Shown here: in pieces, positions 56,582 through 64,000 of the stretch
Numbering within the stretch: position 1 is the stretch's first letter
How the letters are laid out: every line of letters begins with the position of its first letter
Assembly (NCBI GenBank): GCA_029262695.1
Contig: JAJCYV010000022.1
Span: 190,886-254,885 of the forward strand
Source of the DNA: Chloroflexota bacterium
GTDB taxonomy: Bacteria > Chloroflexota > Dehalococcoidia > SM23-28-2 > RBG-16-64-32
Direction of reading: 5' to 3'
DNA length: 64,000 nt
Position numbers and translations under genes: made by a program
Notes under the pieces: generated by a model
What the model saw: only the letters and a program-made list of their open reading frames with translations
Told to the model about the DNA's origin: nothing
The model's database searches: none

Positions 56582-56923
56582 GTGGCCGACTGCTTGTTCT
56601 GCAAGATCATCGAGGGCGAGATACCGTCCGACAGGCTCTACGACGACGACCTTGTCGTCGTGATCCTCGACATCAGCCCGCGCGCGCCGCGGCATTTCCT
56701 GGTGCTGCCGCGGGAGCACATCGGCACCGCGAAGGACGTGCGGGGCGAGCACGGGCCGCTCCTCAGCCGCATGTTCATGGCGGCGTCCAGAGTAGCGGCG
56801 GACGAAGGCATCTCCGACAGCGGCTTCCGCATCGCCTTCAACGTCGGCGACGACGCCGGGATGACAGTGGACCACCTGCACATGCACGTCCTCGGCGGCC
56901 GCCAGCTCGGCCCCGAAGGCTAG
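56582..56923 (+). CDS. HIT family nucleotide-binding protein
   Basis: DCLFCKI, HLHMHVLGGR. Confidence 0.95.
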   Translation: MADCLFCKIIEGEIPSDRLYDDDLVVVILDISPRAPRHFLVLPREHIGTAKDVRGEHGPLLSRMFMAASRVAADEGISDSGFRIAFNVGDDAGMTVDHLHMHVLGGRQLGPEG

Positions 56924-57004
56924 GGCGACCAGCGCCGCCGCACGGCCAGCCCGCAATTCGGCGAAACGCACCTCGCTCCATGCCCCTCCACCGCCAGTCT
57001 CCTG

Positions 57005-57033
57005 TTGACTGAGTAGAACGCCTGTTCTATTAT
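57005..57033 (+). promoter_or_regulatory. Promoter P1 with LexA (SOS) box in spacer
   Basis: TTGACT-17 bp-TATTAT; AGAAC-GCCT-GTTCT at 57015-57028. Confidence 0.85.
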
Positions 57034-57083
57034 GGCTCCCTGCCCGCGTCTAGTTCGGGGGATCTCGCGAGGGGGAGGATGCG

Positions 57084-57440
57084 GTGGATGGGAGGAAGGT
57101 CGTGAGCATTTCCTGGCGCGCCGCCGCGGCGGCGCTGGACGCGGGAACCGCCGTCTTCGCCGCGGTCAACGTGGCGTACTTCGTCACACGCCTCGCCGGC
57201 GACGGCCCTGAAACGCCGGCGCGGCGTGCGGCCGTCCTGGCGCTCGCCGTCATCAGCCTCGGCGCCCTTGCCGAGGCCCTCGTGCTGCTAGCGTCGCTGG
57301 CGGCGAGCGACCCGGCGCCCCTCCTCTCGTCCCCGCAGTGGACGGCCGTTCGGGTGCTGGCCTGCGCCGGCGGCGGCGGCGTCTGCGCGCTCATCCTGCG
57401 CCGCCTCTCCGACGGCCCCACAGGACCGGAAGGAGATTAA
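57084..57440 (+). CDS. Three-TM membrane hypothetical protein
   Basis: Hydrophobic ORF; start 57084 or 57102. Confidence 0.65.
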   Translation: MDGRKVVSISWRAAAAALDAGTAVFAAVNVAYFVTRLAGDGPETPARRAAVLALAVISLGALAEALVLLASLAASDPAPLLSSPQWTAVRVLACAGGGGVCALILRRLSDGPTGPEGD

Positions 57441-57441
57441 C

Positions 57442-57624
57442 GTGACCGAGGCCGGGACCCTCCACCGCGCGATCGACGCTCGACAGTGGGAGACCGCCGC
57501 CCTCTGCCTTCTCGTCGCCGTCGCCGAGGCCGCCAACCGCCTGCCTCCACAGGCGCTGGAGGAGATGCTCGAGCTGCTGGCCGCAGAGACGGCGACGCAC
57601 CGTCAGCGCCGGAAGAGGCGCTAG
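57442..57624 (+). CDS. 60-aa hypothetical protein
   Basis: AAGGAG RBS; tightly coupled to both neighbours. Confidence 0.6.
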   Translation: MTEAGTLHRAIDARQWETAALCLLVAVAEAANRLPPQALEEMLELLAAETATHRQRRKRR

Positions 57625-57941
57625 TGGCGGCGCGAAAGGCCGCCGCCCGCGTCCGCGACTTCTACGCCACCGCCCTTACCGACGCCGAACGCCTGCAGCT
57701 GACGGACGCCCGCCGCGTCGACGGCCTGGATGAGGAGATCGCGCTCTTACGGGTGCGGCTGCGCTCGGCTCTCGAACAGCGGCCGCAGGACTTCGATCTC
57801 TTGCGCGATGGCATAGCGCTGCTCGTGCGCGCCGTCGCCACGCAGTACCGCCTCTCCCCAAAGGCCCGCAAGGACCTGGCGGACCGGATGGCGGCCGTCC
57901 TCAACAGCGTCGGCGACCAGATCCTGCCGGCGGACAGGTAG
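57624..57941 (+). CDS. Helical protein, possible small-terminase-like
   Basis: GTG overlaps upstream stop; FY...GLDEEIALLRVRL; lies upstream of the large terminase. Confidence 0.6.
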   Translation: MAARKAAARVRDFYATALTDAERLQLTDARRVDGLDEEIALLRVRLRSALEQRPQDFDLLRDGIALLVRAVATQYRLSPKARKDLADRMAAVLNSVGDQILPADR

Positions 57942-58055
57942 GAGACACGTGACAAGAGACAGGAGACAAGGGGGCGTACATCGTGCCACGCGATCCCTGT
58001 TCCCTGCTCCGCGTCCCTTTTTCGAACAAACGTCCTGTTCTTAACCATAAGCATA

Positions 58056-58084
58056 TTGACATGCTAGAACGCCCGTTCTATCCT
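58056..58084 (+). promoter_or_regulatory. Promoter P2 with LexA box in spacer, plus two flanking degenerate boxes
   Basis: TTGACA-17 bp-TATCCT; TAGAAC-GCCC-GTTCTA at 58065-58080; GAACAAACGTCC at 58024; GCACAGATGTTC at 58090. Confidence 0.85.
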
Positions 58085-58095
58085 GCTCCGCACAG

Positions 58096-58356
58096 ATGTT
58101 CGCAATGAGCCGCCCACTCGAACGAGCCCTTCAGCGCTTCCGCACTCCTCCGGCTGACGGGGACCCCGACGAGTCCGTAGGACGGGCGGACGTTGCCGGC
58201 CGCGTCTCGACTGCCGCCTTCCGGGCAGCGATCGAGGAGCGCATGCGCAACCTGGAACGCGACATGGGCGACATCAAGAACCGGGTGAACGGCCTCATCT
58301 TCCTGGTCGCGGGGACCGTCATCACACAACTGCTCGTGAGGGTGATGGCGTGGTGA
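58096..58356 (+). CDS. Small coiled-coil + C-terminal TM protein
   Basis: IEERMRNLERDMGDIKNRV then a hydrophobic tail. Confidence 0.65.
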   Translation: MFAMSRPLERALQRFRTPPADGDPDESVGRADVAGRVSTAAFRAAIEERMRNLERDMGDIKNRVNGLIFLVAGTVITQLLVRVMAW

Positions 58357-59735
58357 CGGCCCCGCTGCCCACGCTGCGCCCCTACCAGGCCGAGGCCGCA
58401 CGCGCCATCACCGAGTCGGTGCTCAGCGGGCGCGGCCTCACCTTCAGCGTCGTCATGGCCCGCCAGGCCGGCAAGAACGAACTCTCCGCGCAGATTGAGC
58501 TGTTTCTGCTCCTGAAGCACGCCCGCCGCCGCGTCGAGGGCATCAAGTGCGCCCCGACGTTTGCGCCGCAGTGCCAGCTGAGCCTGCGCCGCCTCTGGTC
58601 GCGCATCGGCCAGGCGGGACTCGACCAGATCGCCTCTCGCGAAGAAGGCCGCGCCGTCCGCCTCGGCCGCGCCCGCGTCGCCTTCCTCTCCGCCGAGCCG
58701 GGCGCCAACGTCGTCGGTCACACGGCCGGCCTGATGCTGGAGGTAGACGAGGCACAGGACATCGACCCCGATAAGTTCGATCGCGACTTCCGCCCGATGG
58801 CCGCACCCGCCGGCGCGACGATCGTCTACTACGGCACGCCGTGGGACGAGTCGACGCTGCTGGAACGCGCCGCCCATCAGCACGTGGACCTCGAAAAGCG
58901 TGACGGCGTCCGGCGCCATTTCACAGCCGATTGGACGGCCGTCGCCCGGCACAATCCGGCCTACGGACGCTTCGTTGAGGCGGAGCGCGAGCGACTGGGC
59001 GAGGACCACCCGCTCTTCCGCACGCAGTACGCCCTGCGACCGGTGGCCGGGAGTGGCCGCCTCCTCTCCGCCACCCAGCGCGCGCAGCTGCAAGGCCGCC
59101 ACGCACGACAGCACACAGCAAGCTACGGCGACACATACGTCGCGGGACTCGACATCGGCGGTCAGGACTTCGGTTCGGGCCGCGATAACGACCGCACCGT
59201 GGTCACCATCGCCCGCGTTGTCCCGCCTGAAGCGGGCGCGACCGTCCCCGAGCCGCGGCTCGAAGTCGTCGAGCACGTGGCGGAGGCCGGCGCCCCGCAC
59301 GACGCGTTGATCGCCCGCCTCTCAGACCTCCTCGGCGAGGTCTGGCGCGTCAGTCGTGTGACCGTCGACGCGACGGGCGTCGGGGAGACGATCGCGACGT
59401 TGCTGGCGCGCCGCCTGGGCGAAGACGTCGTCCGGCCGCTGCGCTTTTCGGCGGAGGCGAAGTCGCGCCTGGGCTTCGGCCTGCTCGCGGCGGTCAACGG
59501 CGGCCGCCTCAAATGCTACGCCGCCGACGGTTCGGCGGAATACGCCGCCTTCTCTCACGAAGTCGCACTGGCGCGCGTCGCCTATCGGCCGGGCGGCCGG
59601 ATGAGCTTCCATGTCGACGCCGCCGACGGACACGACGACTATCTGGTGAGCCTGGCGCTCGCCGTAGAAGCCGGACGCGTCGGGCTGCCACAGCCGCGCG
59701 TCGCCCGGGGTCGCGCCCCGGTCCTGAGCAGGTAA
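58350..59735 (+). CDS. Phage-type terminase large subunit
   Basis: LRPYQ, Walker A ARQAGKNE, Walker B LEVDEAQD, GTPW, nuclease AGLDIGG, VDATGVG, HDDY. Confidence 0.88.
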   Translation: MVTAPLPTLRPYQAEAARAITESVLSGRGLTFSVVMARQAGKNELSAQIELFLLLKHARRRVEGIKCAPTFAPQCQLSLRRLWSRIGQAGLDQIASREEGRAVRLGRARVAFLSAEPGANVVGHTAGLMLEVDEAQDIDPDKFDRDFRPMAAPAGATIVYYGTPWDESTLLERAAHQHVDLEKRDGVRRHFTADWTAVARHNPAYGRFVEAERERLGEDHPLFRTQYALRPVAGSGRLLSATQRAQLQGRHARQHTASYGDTYVAGLDIGGQDFGSGRDNDRTVVTIARVVPPEAGATVPEPRLEVVEHVAEAGAPHDALIARLSDLLGEVWRVSRVTVDATGVGETIATLLARRLGEDVVRPLRFSAEAKSRLGFGLLAAVNGGRLKCYAADGSAEYAAFSHEVALARVAYRPGGRMSFHVDAADGHDDYLVSLALAVEAGRVGLPQPRVARGRAPVLSR

Positions 59736-59756
59736 GAGCACGTAAGGAGGAGAGCG

Positions 59757-60158
59757 ATGAGCACAGCAGTGATGACGGGAACGAAGTCGGAGCAGCTCCG
59801 GCTACCGATGTCCGGCGCGGCCAGTCCACGGGTCCGCTCCGACGCCCTGCCGGAGTTCACACGATACCGGGACAGCGGCTGCGACGTGAGCCCGAACTGC
59901 CTCGCCTGCCCGCTGCCTCGCTGCCGCTACGAGGAGCCGGGAGGCCTGCGGGCGCTCCTCAACAAGACGCGCGACGAGCAGATCGTGACGCAGCGCGCGA
60001 CCGGCGTGCCGGTGGCCGAAATTGCCACGCGCTTCGGCGTCTCCCGGCGCACCGTCTTTCGCGTCCTCGGCAACCGGGCGCGGCAGCCGATACCGATCCG
60101 CCAGAGAGATGAGGCCCCGACGAACGGCCAATCGAGAAGGGAGGCGCACTGTGCGTAA
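59757..60158 (+). CDS. Cys4 motif + HTH DNA-binding protein
   Basis: GC....CLAC....C then VAEIATRFGVSRRTVFRVL. Confidence 0.8.
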   Translation: MSTAVMTGTKSEQLRLPMSGAASPRVRSDALPEFTRYRDSGCDVSPNCLACPLPRCRYEEPGGLRALLNKTRDEQIVTQRATGVPVAEIATRFGVSRRTVFRVLGNRARQPIPIRQRDEAPTNGQSRREAHCA

Positions 60159-60243
60159 CATGCTCACGGCAACGCTCCACACCGCCGGATACCTGGCGCT
60201 CACGAGCACCGCGATCTGGATGCTCTTCCGTTTCGCGCCATAG
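60151..60243 (+). CDS. 30-aa hydrophobic peptide MRNMLTATLHTAGYLALTSTAIWMLFRFAP
   Basis: GGAGG RBS, GTG start, overlaps upstream stop. Confidence 0.45.
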   Translation: MRNMLTATLHTAGYLALTSTAIWMLFRFAP

Positions 60244-60316
60244 CCGCGGACCCCGACGGGTCCGTAGGACGAGCGGAGGTTGCCCGGGGAGGCCGGGCAG
60301 AAGGGAGGAGGAGGAA

Positions 60317-61681
60317 ATGGTAATAGCAACGACGCCGACGCGCGCCGACGTGCCGCTGCCGCAACAGCTGAGAGCGCTGGACAGCGAGCGGATGCGCGCC
60401 TATCGCGGGAACCTGGAGTTCTACGAGGGGCGCCAGTGGGCGGAGTCCCAGCGGCGACGCGAGCGCCGGCTCTCGTTCAATTACGCCCGTACGATCATCG
60501 AGAAGACCGCCTCGTACACGATGTCCGGCCTGACCTCCGTCAGCGACCCGGCAGACGGCTCGCCGGAGGCAGCGGAGGCGGCGCGGCGAGCCGAGCAGGC
60601 GTTGCGCGACGTCTACGACGCCAACGCGCTCGACCAGCTGGACTTCGACAACGAGATCGACTGCTCCGTGCTCGGCGACGCCGCCTACAAAGTGACGTGG
60701 GACGCCGCCGAAGAGCGCGTTCGCGTCTCGGCGCCCGACGTCCAGGGGCTGTACGCCTGGTGGCTCGCCGACGATCCCTCGCGGGTCTGGCGCGTCGCCT
60801 CGCGCTACACGCTGGCCGGCGATGAGTCGGCGGCGCTCTTTGACGTCCCGGCGTCTACGGCCGCCGAGCGCAGCGTGGTTGAGGTCTGGACGAACGACAC
60901 GTTCGAGCTGTGGTTCGACGGTGCCCTCGCCGAGGCGGCGGACAACCCGTACGGCTTCATCCCGTACGTTATCTACCCGAACATCCGCGAGCCGAAGAAG
61001 TTCTGGGGCGTCTCCGACCTCGTCGCCGTAAAGGAGCCGCTACGCGAGCTGAACCGCGCGCTGACGCAGCTCTCGACGATCCTCGAGATGTCGGGGAACC
61101 CGATCGCGGTGCTGGAGAACGTGACCGAAGCGCAGGACATCGCCGTCCAGCCGGGCGCGGTCTGGGAGATCCCGGAGAAGGCTCGTGCTTACCTGCTTGA
61201 CCTGCTGCAGGGCGGCGGCGCCAGCCTGCACGTCGAGTACGCCAACCTCGTCCTGCGCACGCTGCACGACCTAGCGGAGGTGCCGCGCAGCGCCTTCGGG
61301 GACAACCGCCAGGCGCTCTCTGGCGTGGCCCTCCAGCTCGAACTAGACCCGCTGCTCAAGAAGGTAGCCCGCAAGCGCCTGATCCGCGGCGCCGCCTTTC
61401 GCAGGCGCAACGAGATGGTGCTGCGGATCCTGGAGGGACAGAGCGGCGAGAGCTTCGCGCCGTACCGCAGCCGCATCGCCTGGGGGCCCGTTCTGCCGCA
61501 GGACCGCTCGCGGCTGGTCGAGGACGAGACGCGGCTCGTGGCCTCCGGCATCCACTCGCGGCGCACGGCCGCGGGCCTGCTCAACGTCGCGGACCCTGAC
61601 GGTGAGTGGGCGCGCTGGCTCAGCGAAGAGTCGGCGTCCCCTGCCGGTCCGCTGGCGGGCGAGAACGGCGGTGAGCGATGA
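60317..61681 (+). CDS. Phage portal protein (SPP1 gp6-like)
   Basis: FYEG.Q, N.ARTII, LGDA, NPYGFIPYV..PN, G.SDL, SGVAL; strong RBS. Confidence 0.85.
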   Translation: MVIATTPTRADVPLPQQLRALDSERMRAYRGNLEFYEGRQWAESQRRRERRLSFNYARTIIEKTASYTMSGLTSVSDPADGSPEAAEAARRAEQALRDVYDANALDQLDFDNEIDCSVLGDAAYKVTWDAAEERVRVSAPDVQGLYAWWLADDPSRVWRVASRYTLAGDESAALFDVPASTAAERSVVEVWTNDTFELWFDGALAEAADNPYGFIPYVIYPNIREPKKFWGVSDLVAVKEPLRELNRALTQLSTILEMSGNPIAVLENVTEAQDIAVQPGAVWEIPEKARAYLLDLLQGGGASLHVEYANLVLRTLHDLAEVPRSAFGDNRQALSGVALQLELDPLLKKVARKRLIRGAAFRRRNEMVLRILEGQSGESFAPYRSRIAWGPVLPQDRSRLVEDETRLVASGIHSRRTAAGLLNVADPDGEWARWLSEESASPAGPLAGENGGER

Positions 61682-61884
61682 CCGGCGAACCGCTGGGGCT
61701 GCCGCGGGGAAGCGTGCGCGCCGTGATGTCGGTCGCGGTCGTGCTGGTCGCCGCTGCGATCGCCGCCGTGCTGCTCACACGCGAGCCGTCGTCCGACCTG
61801 ACGAAGATGGTCGTCGGCGGCTGGGCCACGGCGCTGGGGAACGTAATCGGGTTCTACTTCGGAGCGCGCAGCACCGCTGAGTGA
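61678..61884 (+). CDS. Two-TM holin-like small protein
   Basis: PLGLPRGSVRA...VIGFYFG; ATGA coupling to portal. Confidence 0.6.
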   Translation: MTGEPLGLPRGSVRAVMSVAVVLVAAAIAAVLLTREPSSDLTKMVVGGWATALGNVIGFYFGARSTAE

Positions 61885-61886
61885 CG

Positions 61887-62423
61887 TCAGGCGCCTCCTG
61901 CGGATCCGTCGGAGCGAGCGGCCACGTGCTGTTCCCAGTAGCGGCGGAAGATGGCGAGGCCCCAGCGGTAACCCCAGGCGTCGCCGAGGCTGTTCGCCAC
62001 GTTGGCGGAGAAGATGTAGAAGAAGATCATCAGGCCGAAGAAGGCCGTGACGGACCACCACGTGACGCCGGCAAACGCCAGCGGAACCAGCGCCAGCGCG
62101 ACGCCGGTCGTCAGGCCTGCCCAGGCGATCGTGCGCACGACGGCGCCCTCGCGGCCCCGCCGGCGGCGGTGTCCCTCGATCACGTCGAGCGGCACGCTCT
62201 CGACGGTGGCGGTCTCGGCGGTGGGCGTTCCGCAGTGAGGGCAGTCGCCGTCCCCGGCCTGGCGCGGGTGATAGCAGTTGCCGCAGAAGCGGCCGGTGTT
62301 GGGAGCACGACCGGCAAGCACCTCATCCAGCCAGGCAACGAGGCGCGCGGAGACGATCTCGTCCCCCGCGCCTCCGGGCGCCTCGGAGCCGGAAGGCCGC
62401 TCGCCGGCCCGCGCCTGCGTCAC
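61887..62423 (-). CDS. Zinc-ribbon + two-TM hypothetical protein
   Basis: FCGNC...CPHCG; C-terminal TM helices. Confidence 0.7.
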   Translation of the reverse strand: MTQARAGERPSGSEAPGGAGDEIVSARLVAWLDEVLAGRAPNTGRFCGNCYHPRQAGDGDCPHCGTPTAETATVESVPLDVIEGHRRRRGREGAVVRTIAWAGLTTGVALALVPLAFAGVTWWSVTAFFGLMIFFYIFSANVANSLGDAWGYRWGLAIFRRYWEQHVAARSDGSAGGA

Positions 62424-62425
62424 GT

Positions 62426-62827
62426 CTAGTCGATGCCCATCGTGGCGACCTGATCGGCCCGGATCACGAAGAGCAGCCGCTGCTCGCCCGGCTGCAGGTT
62501 CGGATACTCGTCGAGACCCATGTACTTCTTGGCCAGCTTGTGGATGTTCTCCAGCGCACCCTCGCTCCGCACCTCGGCCACCTCGCCCTGGATCGACGCC
62601 GACTGGTACGGCACGTCCTGGTTGTAGATCGAGATCGCGACGCGGGGATCGCGACGGACGTTGCGGGGCTTGATGCGCCCTTCGGCCGTGTTCACGAGGA
62701 TACTGTCGCCCTCGATATCCACCCAGACAGCGCTGACCTGCGGCGAGCCGTCGGGCATTATCGTGGCCAGGTGGCCGAAGTTCTTCCCTTCGAAAAGGGC
62801 GCGGACGCCGGGACTAAGAGTTGCCAT
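62426..62827 (-). CDS. PPOX-class F420-dependent oxidoreductase
   Basis: LAT..PDGSPQVS.VW, K.RN.RRDPRVA. Confidence 0.92.
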   Translation of the reverse strand: MATLSPGVRALFEGKNFGHLATIMPDGSPQVSAVWVDIEGDSILVNTAEGRIKPRNVRRDPRVAISIYNQDVPYQSASIQGEVAEVRSEGALENIHKLAKKYMGLDEYPNLQPGEQRLLFVIRADQVATMGID

Positions 62828-63092
62828 CGTAACGAAGCTCCTTCTTCCAACATTTTCGGTGGTCGCCAACGCATCGTAACAGCGGCACGATCGTCATGCC
62901 CCGGTTAGGGAGCCGGGGAGATTGAGTTAATCGGGGCCGGGAACGCCCTCGGGCCGTATCGATGAGCGCCGTCCAGCGTCTGTCATTGTGCGAGGACCGG
63001 GCGCGCGTCCGGCTCGTGAGCCGAATAAAGCAGCCCGAACCGCGAGCGGCGCCCCCTCTTCGCCGCGGCGAAGGCACAAGAAGGAGCCTCCC

Positions 63093-64000
63093 ATGGCGTG
63101 GTTGACCTCACTGCTCAACAGACCGGAGACCACCGAAGATGAGCGCGCGCCCTCCGAGCAGGACACGCTCGCAGCCGAGGAAGCGGCCGCGCGGCGGCCC
63201 GCTCCCGGCAGTCCGCCGTTAGCAATCCTGTCGCCGGACATCGGAGGCATCAGTTCGTTCAGCCTGCGCTTCTTCGCCGACGCCGCGACCGCCGCAGCAG
63301 ACATCGAGCAGCTCACGCCGGAGATGCGCCGCGGCACGCACGCCTTCTGGGCGCTGCACGACGAGCCGGTGCTCCCACCCGACGGTCACCGCGAAGCGCT
63401 CGTCCTCATCCGCGCCAACCACACGTCGGACATCGTCTACGCCGTCTCGTTCGTCGACCTGGAGAGCGCGTGGTCGTTCGCCCGCTTTGAGGCCAAGCGC
63501 GGCCTCGACGTCTCACATCTGATTATCCTCTGGGCCGCCTTCGCCACAGTCCGCGAGGAGCTGGACGGCGTCAGCGTTCTGCCCGCTTCAGCGCCGGCGA
63601 CCAGGGCCCAACACGCCAGGGCGTACCCGGGCCAGAGCGCCGTAGAGCTCGCGGCCACTGAGACCGTCCGCGAGTACGAGCGTGCCGAGGAGCCGACGAT
63701 CACCGACAGCGCCGCCGCTCCTGAAGCGCCCGAAGAAGCGGGACTCGCTGAGGCCGAGACCGAACGTCGCGAGGAGGCTGCCCGAGCGAGACTCGCTGAG
63801 GCCGAGACCGGGCGCCGCGAGGAGGCGGCCCGGCGCGCCGAAGCTGACGAAGCTGCCCGCATCGCCAGGCAGGCGCAGGAAGAGCTGCGGGCAGCGCGCG
63901 CGGCTGCCGACGCCGCTCGCGCCGTCGCCGAAGCCGAGACGACACGGCGCGAGGAGGCCGAGCGCCGCCTGGAAGAGCAGCGACAGGCCGCCGAGGCCGC
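63093..64000 (+). CDS. Hypothetical protein with globular N-terminal domain and Ala/Glu/Arg coiled coil; runs off window
   Basis: AAGGAG RBS, MAWLTSLLNRP...; EAET.RREEAAR repeats; absent from the ORF track because it has no stop in the window. Confidence 0.75.
   Translation, partial: MAWLTSLLNRPETTEDERAPSEQDTLAAEEAAARRPAPGSPPLAILSPDIGGISSFSLRFFADAATAAADIEQLTPEMRRGTHAFWALHDEPVLPPDGHREALVLIRANHTSDIVYAVSFVDLESAWSFARFEAKRGLDVSHLIILWAAFATVREELDGVSVLPASAPATRAQHARAYPGQSAVELAATETVREYERAEEPTITDSAAAPEAPEEAGLAEAETERREEAARARLAEAETGRREEAARRAEADEAARIARQAQEELRAARAAADAARAVAEAETTRREEAERRLEEQRQAAEA

What the first reader, a model, noticed from the sequence alone, without database searches (positions are those of the whole stretch)
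57005..61884. Domesticated, SOS-controlled phage DNA-packaging module (GTA-like candidate)
Seen: intact terminase and portal genes, a possible small-terminase-like gene, a Cys4-HTH regulator and small membrane proteins. They lie between HIT and a zinc-ribbon/PPOX pair, with host-like composition. No integrase, att repeat, replication, repressor, capsid or tail gene appears in the window. Established: gene transfer agents are host-regulated phage-derived modules often split over several loci. Inference: a vertically inherited, DNA-damage-inducible packaging system in a lineage where I know of no characterised GTA; head genes may be elsewhere in the genome.
Basis: partly seen in the sequence, partly recalled or inferred. 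Interest (0 to 1): 0.88.

Follow-up and report, generated by a model that had tools for sequence, protein, structure and literature searches.

The report
Ancient domesticated phage capsid genes, Dehalococcoidia
This stretch holds the DNA-packaging half of a small phage-derived particle gene set that Dehalococcoidia bacteria appear to have inherited from parent to offspring since early in the class, that sits behind DNA-damage-type switches, and that looks like a new gene-transfer-agent candidate.

Summary
Window 57005-61884 holds two sigma-70-like promoters, each with a GAAC-N4-GTTC palindrome in its spacer. Behind them lie small membrane proteins, a TerS-like gene, an intact large terminase, a Cys4-HTH protein, an SPP1-type portal and a 68-aa membrane protein.

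Scaffold, HK97-type capsid, SU10-type adaptor and a propeller-plus-tail-hub gene lie on another contig (C39), and the scaffold gene there carries the same palindrome.

In other families all these genes form one 10-12 kb cluster. The portal was found in 38 of 41 genomes of the order and 157 of 251 of the class. Portal, terminase and capsid trees follow the host families. dN/dS is 0.10-0.16, as low as flanking housekeeping genes. No integrase lies on either contig.

The same palindrome core precedes lexA in 29 of 30 relatives. In this genome it also precedes recA, and the full 16-bp form precedes a Y-family polymerase gene.

Best reading: an old, vertically inherited, SOS-box-controlled short-tailed particle system, GTA-like. 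Particles, random packaging and transfer are untested. Some relatives have lost it, and exact boxes were seen in only 40 of 78 genomes.

The parts
57005..57033 (+). Promoter P1: TTGACT, a 17-nt spacer and TATTAT. A 16-bp palindrome of LexA-box type (57014-57029) lies in the spacer.
   Evidence: (repeat family D9). This is one of only 2 promoter-like sites in 56800-62500.
57084..57440 (+). m118, a small membrane protein of 118 aa and the first gene of the P1 operon.
   Evidence: Two hydrophobic segments. Homologues sit in the same position in families f1 and f6. dN/dS is 0.34-0.45.
57442..57624 (+). o60, a 60-aa protein of unknown function.
   Evidence: Conserved in position in f1 and f6. Its stop codon overlaps the GTG of the next gene (TAGTG).
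57624..57941 (+). TerS-like helical protein of 105 aa. An alternative start at 57486 would give 151 aa.
   Evidence: Weak phrog_1889 hit, E=0.028. It is 27% identical (E 1.8e-7) to the protein of phage-like contig L044 that hits the TerS families phrog_370 and phrog_1889. In several families the homologue abuts or overlaps TerL.
58056..58084 (+). Promoter P2: TTGACA, a 17-nt spacer and TATCCT. The palindrome lies at 58065-58080.
58096..58356 (+). o86, an 86-aa protein with a C-terminal membrane anchor. It overlaps the TerL start.
   Evidence: Hydropathy. Weak phrog_9511 hit, E=0.0057. Conserved upstream of TerL in many families.
58350..59735 (+). Large terminase (ATPase plus RNase H-like nuclease), intact.
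   Evidence: The RQxGKNE, EVDEAQ and YGTPW motifs, the two nuclease Asp residues and HDD are at least 95% conserved in 58 sequences. dN/dS is 0.13-0.16.
59757..60158 (+). Cys4 (C-X5-C-X2-C-X4-C) plus three-helix HTH protein. It is the gene most tightly linked to the portal.
   Evidence: Found next to the portal in 77 of 80 named loci. The model has pLDDT 77.9, with only generic HTH fold matches at E above 0.1.
60317..61681 (+). SPP1-type portal protein, intact.
   Evidence: dN/dS is 0.10-0.12.
61678..61884 (+). m68, a 68-aa membrane protein and a holin-like candidate. Its start overlaps the portal stop.
   Evidence: Hydropathy. phrog_38564 at 2e-4, function unknown. 70-94% identity within the family, dN/dS 0.08-0.33.
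58158..58197 (+). First copy of a 40-nt direct repeat, inside o86. The second copy is at 60245-60284, 33 nt upstream of the portal ATG.
   Evidence: 90% identical. Both copies are kept in relatives of the same genus only. Meaning unknown.

Best explanation
The locus is the packaging half of an old, endogenised, phage-derived particle gene set (a viriform or GTA-type element) of the class Dehalococcoidia.

Ancestral gene order: [o68]-TerS-like-[o86]-TerL-Cys4-HTH-portal-scaffold-HK97-type capsid-SU10-type adaptor-propeller/tail-hub-p70, about 10-12 kb in all. In this genome's family the set is split. The terminase-portal half lies beside the HIT gene, in this window. The scaffold-capsid-adaptor-hub half lies on contig C39.

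Proposed working (inferred):
1. DNA damage activates RecA, and LexA cleaves itself.
2. That frees the sigma-70-like promoters, whose spacers carry GAAC-N4-GTTC palindromes: P1, P2 and the scaffold promoter.
3. Portal, scaffold and capsid protein build a procapsid.
4. The TerS-like protein and TerL fill it with DNA by headful cutting.
5. The adaptor and a trimeric hub with lectin-like propellers close it as a very short tail.
6. Small membrane proteins may release it.

The element has no integrase or replication genes, and in this family its genes lie on separate loci. It therefore cannot spread itself, so the cargo is most likely host DNA.

Shown here: gene identities, conservation, co-descent with hosts, purifying selection and shared operator motifs. 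Inferred: induction, assembly, cargo and delivery.
For: Identity of the parts:
- TerL and portal by family models.
- On C39: capsid C39:25253-26158 (phrog_212 3.9e-72; PF05065 9e-9), adaptor C39:27775-28410 (PF24175 8.8e-9) and a coiled-coil scaffold-like gene C39:18693-19229.
- The 651-aa protein C39:28413-30368 models at pLDDT 92.9. Its C-terminal ~340 residues match baseplate hubs (Mu gp44 1wru at 1.2e-15, eCIS hubs at 2e-17, and viral 'tail protein' and 'protein D' entries at ~1e-17). Its N-terminal half gives propeller-lectin matches.

One cluster: in f6, f2, f41, f61, f71, f20, f44 and f26 all these genes are contiguous and in one order.

Spread:
- In 41 genomes of the order: portal 38, TerL 36, capsid 31.
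- In the class: portal in 157 of 251 genomes, and in 117 of 182 high-quality ones.
- Outside the class: only 8 of about 180 genomes, at 37-46% identity.

Co-descent:
- Portal tree of 79 genomes: 28 family labels need 27 changes, the minimum (shuffled mean 60.9; 0 of 200 shuffles as low).
- The copy from phage-like contig L044 falls outside on a long branch.
- TerL needs 20 changes against a minimum of 19, and MCP 18 against 17.

Selection: dN/dS is 0.10-0.12 for the portal and 0.13-0.16 for TerL, against 0.12-0.20 for flanking AK, thrB and HIT. TerL catalytic motifs are conserved.

Endogenised:
- Flanked by host genes.
- No integrase on C22 or C39.
- Cluster GC follows flank GC, r=0.91 over 51 genomes spanning 0.46-0.72.
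- No close phage is known: at most 25% identity in GenBank phages, and only short fragments of the same cluster in IMG/VR.
- In G014 the portal and capsid genes lie about 207 kb apart on one contig.

SOS link:
- This genome has 3 perfect 16-bp TAGAAC-N4-GTTCTA palindromes. They lie at P1, at P2 and upstream of a Y-family polymerase gene (PF00817 1.2e-16).
- A one-mismatch copy precedes the scaffold gene.
- lexA and recA carry the core box, and ruvB a near copy.
- 29 of 30 lexA upstream regions in relatives carry an exact core box.
- In 78 genomes, 53 of 65 core boxes within 1.29 Mb of fetched loci lie at most 500 nt upstream of a cluster gene.
Against: - No particles, cargo or transfer have been observed.
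- The element is dispensable. In the same genus, G004 gave no match to any of the three queries. G003 and G006 keep TerL but have a truncated portal and a lost or remnant capsid gene. G012's portal is split by about 31 kb. G017 (97% complete) gave no capsid match.
- In the class, 94 of 251 genomes gave no portal match. Two families gave none at all (0 of 13 and 0 of 7).
- Exact boxes upstream of cluster genes were found in only 40 of 78 genomes. None were found in 13 of 28 families, f52 among them. One-mismatch boxes were not counted.
- In this genome a 1582-aa gene on the opposite strand separates the scaffold gene and its box from the capsid gene. No box was found upstream of the capsid gene.
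- No prohead protease (PF04586) was found.
- No tail fibre, tube or endolysin was identified.
- The TerS assignment is weak.
- Where the cluster is contiguous (10-12 kb) a normal-sized head could hold all of it, so the 'cannot package itself' criterion is open.
- Kin are not independent, and the taxon labels come from anonymised GTDB codes.
Confidence: 0.55

Rival explanations
1. A domesticated particle that serves the host in another way than gene transfer. One option is a PBSX-like SOS-induced killer or defective particle. Another is a lysis or DNA-release device that packages DNA but does not deliver it usefully.
For: The same evidence for conservation, selection and SOS-type boxes applies. 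The hub carries lectin-like propellers that could bind cells. No tail tube or fibre was found, so delivery is unproven.
Against: An intact, catalytically conserved terminase and portal argue that filling heads with DNA matters. A pure killing particle would not need them. Nothing here separates this reading from transfer.
Confidence: 0.2
2. An anti-phage or satellite-like capsid module. The host-kept heads and terminase would hijack or compete with infecting phages, as capsid-forming PICIs do, or would depend on helper-phage tails.
For: The set is small, with TerS, TerL, portal, capsid and connector but no long tail. Related true phages exist in the same lineage (L044: TerL 51%, portal 44%, capsid 46-49% identity).
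Against: There are no integrase or replication genes on the contigs or in the flanks examined. The position among host genes is fixed, and descent follows host families, unlike mobile satellites. The element has its own adaptor and hub.
Confidence: 0.1
3. A decaying cryptic prophage remnant without function.
For: Losses and truncations occur in some relatives (G003, G004, G006, G012, G035, G037). In this genome the set is split and interrupted.
Against: The cluster is conserved class-wide at 46-93% identity. dN/dS is 0.10-0.16, equal to or below housekeeping neighbours. Catalytic motifs and operators are conserved, and families are monophyletic in three gene trees.
Confidence: 0.05
4. A working small temperate phage family that co-speciates with its hosts.
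For: Where the cluster is contiguous it is compact. IMG/VR pipelines flagged 16 fragments as viral.
Against: No integrase, replication, lysogeny or att features were found. The set is split over distant loci in family f1. No IMG/VR contig exceeds 16 kb or adds phage genes. The host flanks are conserved.
Confidence: 0.05

Closest known systems
RcGTA-type gene transfer agents of Alphaproteobacteria (Rhodogtaviriformidae)
   Same: A caudovirus-derived head, packaging, connector and hub gene set that is endogenised, may lie on several loci, is vertically inherited and co-diversifies with its hosts. These are features listed in passages of PMC9662315 and were met here.
   Different: - A different phylum.
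- No tape measure, tail tube or prohead protease was found here.
- The adaptor is SU10-type (podovirus-like), and the hub carries an N-terminal propeller.
- The promoters carry LexA-type boxes. RcGTA control by CtrA, GafA and quorum sensing is recalled, not from a call.
- I did not compare sequences with RcGTA proteins.
BhGTA / VSH-1 of Brachyspira
   Same: [quoted passage not shown] The element co-diversifies with its hosts (passages of PMC9662315).
   Different: BhGTA is known within one genus and without synteny. The set here spans a class and keeps its gene order. BhGTA particles and transfer are shown by experiment; here nothing is.
PBSX-type defective prophage of Bacillus subtilis (recalled, not from a call)
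   Same: A chromosomal, non-propagating, SOS-inducible phage-like particle that packages host DNA.
   Different: PBSX has a contractile tail and its own repressor and kills rather than transfers (all recalled). Here there are no sheath or tube genes, and the putative control is by LexA-type boxes directly in the promoters.
Capsid-forming phage-inducible chromosomal islands (cf-PICI; recalled)
   Same: A small gene set with terminase, portal, capsid and connector but without a full tail.
   Different: cf-PICIs are mobile, with integrase and replication genes. None of these was found here, and descent follows the hosts.
Phage-like contig L044 in relative G019 (the nearest true phage-type module found)
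   Same: The order is TerS, TerL, portal, scaffold-sized gene, capsid (phrog_212), adaptor-like gene and hub-like gene. Identities are TerL 51%, portal 44% and capsid 46-49%.
   Different: It lacks the Cys4-HTH gene between TerL and portal. It sits on a long branch outside all 79 host-tracking portals. It is a second copy in that genome.

Membership tests
Gene transfer agent (viriform), as defined in PMC9662315 | Uses caudoviricete-derived proteins to form caudovirion-like particles (similarity of proteins is accepted as evidence) | tested here: met
   TerL, portal, HK97-type capsid, SU10-type adaptor and tail hub identified by profiles and fold. Particles themselves were not seen.
Gene transfer agent (viriform) | Mostly encapsidates random pieces of host DNA | not testable with these tools
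   Needs sequencing of DNase-protected DNA.
Gene transfer agent (viriform) | Genome fully endogenised in the host genome, often across several loci | tested here: met
   Host-gene flanks and conserved synteny with HIT. Two loci in G000, on C22 and C39. About 207 kb apart in G014. No integrase on these contigs.
Gene transfer agent (viriform) | Cannot be fully packaged because the head is too small | tested here: inconclusive
   Head capacity is unknown. Split loci in family f1 rule out co-packaging there, but the contiguous 10-12 kb clusters elsewhere could fit a normal head.
Gene transfer agent (viriform) | Mostly vertical inheritance and co-diversification with hosts | tested here: met
   Portal, TerL and capsid trees against GTDB family labels. 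Identity falls with rank: 91-93% within the genus, 72-79% within the family, 63-73% within the order, 46-67% within the class.
Gene transfer agent (viriform) | Encapsidated DNA is delivered to other cells | not testable with these tools
   Needs an experiment.
LexA (SOS) regulon | Operator matching the organism's own LexA box, placed within the promoter | tested here: met
   The core GAAC-N4-GTTC lies at lexA in 29 of 30 relatives, and at recA and the Y-family polymerase gene here. It sits in the spacers of P1 and P2. The B. subtilis consensus CGAACN4GTTCG is quoted in a passage of PMC3091678.
LexA (SOS) regulon | LexA binding and induction by DNA damage | not testable with these tools
   Needs EMSA, ChIP or RNA-seq after damage.
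Intact or recently integrated prophage | Integrase, att repeats or tRNA site, replication and lysogeny genes, full tail and lysis genes | tested here: not met
Large terminase (ATPase plus nuclease) | Walker A and B, coupling motif and RNase H-like acidic residues | tested here: met
   Terminase_6C scores above its cut-off. Motifs are at least 95% conserved in 58 sequences. The residue after the Walker A Lys is Asn, not Ser or Thr, and this Asn is invariant. The motif names are recalled knowledge.

The most novel reading that the evidence does not exclude
Dehalococcoidia as a class carry their own gene transfer agent. It would be a minimal short-tailed particle (head, adaptor, propeller-hub) at least as old as most of the class. 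In about half of the sampled lineages it would be switched on directly by LexA cleavage at boxes built into each promoter. This would be the first GTA in Chloroflexota and an independent domestication. It would also be a route for DNA exchange in slow-growing, wall-less, hard-to-transform organisms such as the organohalide respirers.
Probability: 0.35. Interest if true: 0.9.

Novelty: new variant of a known kind. Interest (0 to 1): 0.82.

Why it matters
Only a handful of independent phage domestications into gene transfer agents are recognised. PMC9662315 treats three groups with a known genetic basis (abstract and passages).

A class-wide candidate in Chloroflexota would add an old, separate case with a different build: no tube or tape measure, and a propeller-bearing hub. 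It would also have a simple, testable switch in the form of LexA-type boxes in the promoters.

It would offer a mechanism for gene flow in Dehalococcoidia, which matter for subsurface carbon cycling and dehalogenation.

It also bears on annotation. These genes are flagged as viral or prophage in metagenome pipelines (16 IMG/VR fragments), although they behave like host genes.

My searches found no paper describing this. 'gene transfer agent' with Dehalococcoidia gave 2 incidental papers. With Chloroflexi it gave 36, of which I read 15 listed titles and abstract openings and none was on this. Dehalococcoides with terminase and portal gave 4 unrelated papers. Subscription journals and supplements were not searchable.

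Tried and rejected
- Family search of the own genome for PF05065 found nothing. The capsid gene does match PF05065 by hmmscan, so that first-look search was a false negative. The negative results for PF04586 and PF04233 are therefore weak.
- TerS-like profile (alignment A2) against PDB sequences: nothing meaningful; the best hit was a designed helical repeat at E=0.0037.
- Complex prediction of TerL with the TerS-like protein: no verdict, score 0.21 against a mark of 0.32. This is not evidence either way.
- Cys4-HTH fold search: only generic HTH matches at E above 0.1. The protein atlas gave only HTH_23 clusters of Chloroflexota and viruses.
- The portal of phage-like contig L044 found no relative in IMG/VR.
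- RNA. A DNase-treated metatranscriptome run (X1) holds 18 short contigs, 90-99% alike, over m118, the TerS-like gene, TerL, the Cys4-HTH/portal junction and the portal. They come mostly from relatives, contigs cannot show strand or level, and DNA carry-over is possible. I count it as a hint only.
- Near-perfect palindromes on C1 and C42 lie by rplI-dnaB-like and methylthiotransferase/glycerate-kinase-like ORFs. Those gene names are my reading of the N-terminal sequences only. The sites have mismatches in the core, and I do not count them as SOS sites.
- An 18-nt similarity of the 40-nt repeat to a site near ruvB is treated as chance.
- I could not name the cultured genera behind the anonymised handles. 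The guess that families with 1.4-1.9 Mb closed genomes are Dehalococcoides or Dehalogenimonas is not used as evidence.
- The count of 157 of 251 includes the unpublished genome G273. No other claim rests on it.

Full report
WHAT IS IN THE WINDOW

The window is G000:C22:190886-254885 of a 2.53 Mb, 44-contig genome that is 90% complete. Record titles of close relatives name the lineage as Dehalococcoidia, phylum Chloroflexota.

Between a HIT gene (56582-56923) and a convergent zinc-ribbon/PNPOx pair (61887-62869, minus strand) lie two plus-strand operons.

Operon 1 starts at promoter P1 (57005-57033: TTGACT, 17 nt, TATTAT). It holds:
- m118, a membrane protein;
- o60;
- a 105-aa helical TerS-like protein, whose GTG overlaps the o60 stop.

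Operon 2 starts at promoter P2 (58056-58084: TTGACA, 17 nt, TATCCT). It holds:
- o86, which has a C-terminal membrane anchor;
- TerL;
- a Cys4-HTH protein;
- the portal;
- m68, a membrane protein.

P1 and P2 are the only two promoter-like sites in 5.7 kb, where 0.1 would be expected. Each has a TAGAAC-N4-GTTCTA palindrome in its spacer.

TerL keeps its ATPase and nuclease motifs. The portal scores 78 bits on SPP1_portal.

THE MISSING HEAD GENES EXIST

A relative (G019) carries a second, divergent copy on contig L044. That contig reads like a real phage module: TerS, TerL, portal, a scaffold-sized gene, a phrog_212 capsid, then adaptor-like and hub-like genes.

I searched its proteins against the own genome and found homologues on contig C39:
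- capsid, C39:25253-26158 (phrog_212 3.9e-72; PF05065 9e-9);
- SU10-type adaptor, C39:27775-28410 (PF24175 8.8e-9);
- a 651-aa protein, C39:28413-30368;
- upstream, a coiled-coil scaffold-like gene, C39:18693-19229.

The 651-aa protein models at pLDDT 92.9. Its C-terminal ~340 residues match baseplate and tail hubs (Mu gp44, eCIS and VgrG hubs; viral 'tail protein' and 'protein D'). Its N-terminal half matches propeller lectins.

A 70-aa protein follows the hub in most genomes. Here it is the N-terminus of a 376-aa ORF placed after the capsid gene.

ONE ANCESTRAL CLUSTER

In families f6, f2, f41, f61, f71, f20, f44 and f26 the genes are contiguous, in this order: [o68]-TerS-like-[o86]-TerL-Cys4-HTH-portal-scaffold-capsid-adaptor-hub-p70.

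In 80 named loci fetched with the portal (so all 80 have it), many of them cut by contig ends, the counts were: Cys4-HTH 77, TerL 54, scaffold 48, capsid 41, TerS-like 35, adaptor 32, hub 26, p70 23.

In family f1 the set is split. In G014 the portal and capsid genes are about 207 kb apart.

The flanks are host genes. Two other families (f20, f71) share a CT398-like/RNase H pair next to the TerS end. One Xre-type HTH gene lies next to p70 in L167. No integrase or replication gene was seen.

SPREAD AND DESCENT

- Order: portal in 38 of 41 genomes, TerL in 36 of 41, capsid in 31 of 41.
- Class: portal in 157 of 251 evenly drawn genomes, 117 of 182 high-quality ones and 100 of 163 genera. This count includes the unpublished G273.
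- Phylum sample: 22 of 201 genomes at E <= 1e-30. Of these, 14 are in the class. The other 8 come from about 180 other Chloroflexota, at 37-46% identity.

A portal tree of 79 genomes plus L044 needs 27 changes for 28 GTDB family labels, which is the minimum. The shuffled mean is 60.9, and 0 of 200 shuffles were as low. Family f1 is 16 of 16 in one clade and f2 is 6 of 6. Only f41 needs 2 changes. L044 sits outside on a long branch.

The TerL tree (58 rows) needs 20 changes against a minimum of 19. The capsid tree (31 rows) needs 18 against 17. One of the capsid misfits is the L044 copy standing in for G019. These are quick IQ-TREE searches, and the labels are coded.

SELECTION AND COMPOSITION

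dN/dS (Nei-Gojobori) against same-genus genomes is 0.10-0.12 for the portal, 0.13-0.16 for TerL and 0.08-0.21 for m68. The small proteins and the Cys4-HTH give 0.18-0.49. The flanking AK, thrB and HIT genes give 0.12-0.20.

Cluster GC tracks flank GC with r=0.91 across 51 genomes spanning 0.46-0.72. The cluster is 0.042 higher on average.

GenBank phages reach only 21-25% portal identity. IMG/VR holds 16 contigs of 4-16 kb, all fragments of this same cluster.

THE SOS LINK

The genome has 36 GAAC-N4-GTTC sites. Only three are perfect 16-bp TAGAAC-N4-GTTCTA palindromes. They lie at P1, at P2 and at a site between a Y-family polymerase gene (PF00817 1.2e-16) and a TetR gene.

A one-mismatch copy sits in a TTGCAG-18-TATCGT promoter upstream of the scaffold gene on C39. 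lexA and recA carry the core box. ruvB carries a two-mismatch copy.

In relatives, 29 of 30 lexA upstream regions have an exact core box. The core equals the B. subtilis-type LexA consensus quoted in PMC3091678 (passage). I also recall, without a call, a 2002 report that Dehalococcoides LexA uses the Gram-positive box.

Across 78 genomes, 53 of 65 core boxes in 1.29 Mb of loci lie at most 500 nt upstream of a cluster gene. But only 40 of 78 genomes have one: f1 11 of 11, f2 5 of 6, f6 3 of 4. Thirteen of 28 families have none.

WHAT SPEAKS AGAINST A WORKING SYSTEM IN EVERY CARRIER

- In the own genus, G004 has nothing. G003 and G006 have portal stubs and a lost or remnant capsid gene.
- G012's portal is split by about 31 kb.
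- G035 and G037 keep only stubs.
- In G000 a 1582-aa BACON/PPC surface-protein gene on the other strand separates the scaffold and capsid genes. No box precedes the capsid gene.
- No protease, tube, fibre or endolysin was found.

READING

The data fit a phage-derived particle system that became a host trait near the base of Dehalococcoidia. It has been kept by selection in most lineages, lost in some, and in many wired to LexA-type operators.

Of the six GTA features in PMC9662315:
- three are met by sequence (caudovirus-derived parts; endogenised and multi-locus; vertical co-descent);
- one is open (head capacity);
- two need experiments (random cargo; delivery).

BhGTA shows that induction of a GTA by DNA damage has precedent (passage).

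I put 0.55 on a GTA-like, SOS-box-controlled particle system. I put 0.2 on a domesticated particle with another role, 0.1 on a defence or satellite-like role, and 0.05 each on a dead remnant and on a live mini-phage.

Noticed in passing
G012:C17, about 21178 to 52497 (loci L036 and L037): The portal gene of this relative is split into an N-terminal part (residues 5-227) and a C-terminal part (222-444) about 31 kb apart. This looks like a large insertion into the gene.
   Followed up: no
window 58158-58197 and 60245-60284: A 40-nt direct repeat, 90% identical. One copy lies inside o86 and the other in the portal leader. It contains a short hairpin and both copies are kept only within the genus. 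Function unknown.
   Followed up: partly
window 60160-60243: A 27-codon hydrophobic mini-ORF starts right after the Cys4-HTH stop codon. I cannot tell whether it is real.
   Followed up: no
G000 contig C39:20412-25160 (locus L045:8413-13161, minus strand): A 1582-aa protein with viral BACON, PPC and TSP_3 domains is inserted on the opposite strand between the scaffold and capsid genes.
   Followed up: partly
G020 (loci such as L040): All cluster genes of this 3-contig genome show TGA stops and overlapping pieces in different frames, and its completeness is only 64%. This looks like indel errors of a long-read assembly rather than decay or another genetic code. Not tested.
   Followed up: no
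lexA upstream regions of family f1 (for example L127, L214, L220): Besides the exact box, a second one-mismatch box (CGAACGTATGGTCT type) lies about 30 nt further upstream in most f1 genomes.
   Followed up: no
51 genomes, cluster against flanks: Cluster GC is on average 0.042 above that of the flanking DNA. A GC excess has been reported for alphaproteobacterial GTA genes (recalled, not from a call).
   Followed up: no
window 62988-63998 (ORF open at the window end): A protein with a long Glu/Ala/Arg-rich repetitive C-terminal part (AEAETxRREEAAR-like units), seen in the translation.
   Followed up: no
TerL Walker A, window about 58461-58484: The residue after the P-loop lysine is an invariant Asn (RQxGKNE) instead of the usual Ser or Thr, in all 24 aligned terminases.
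   Followed up: partly
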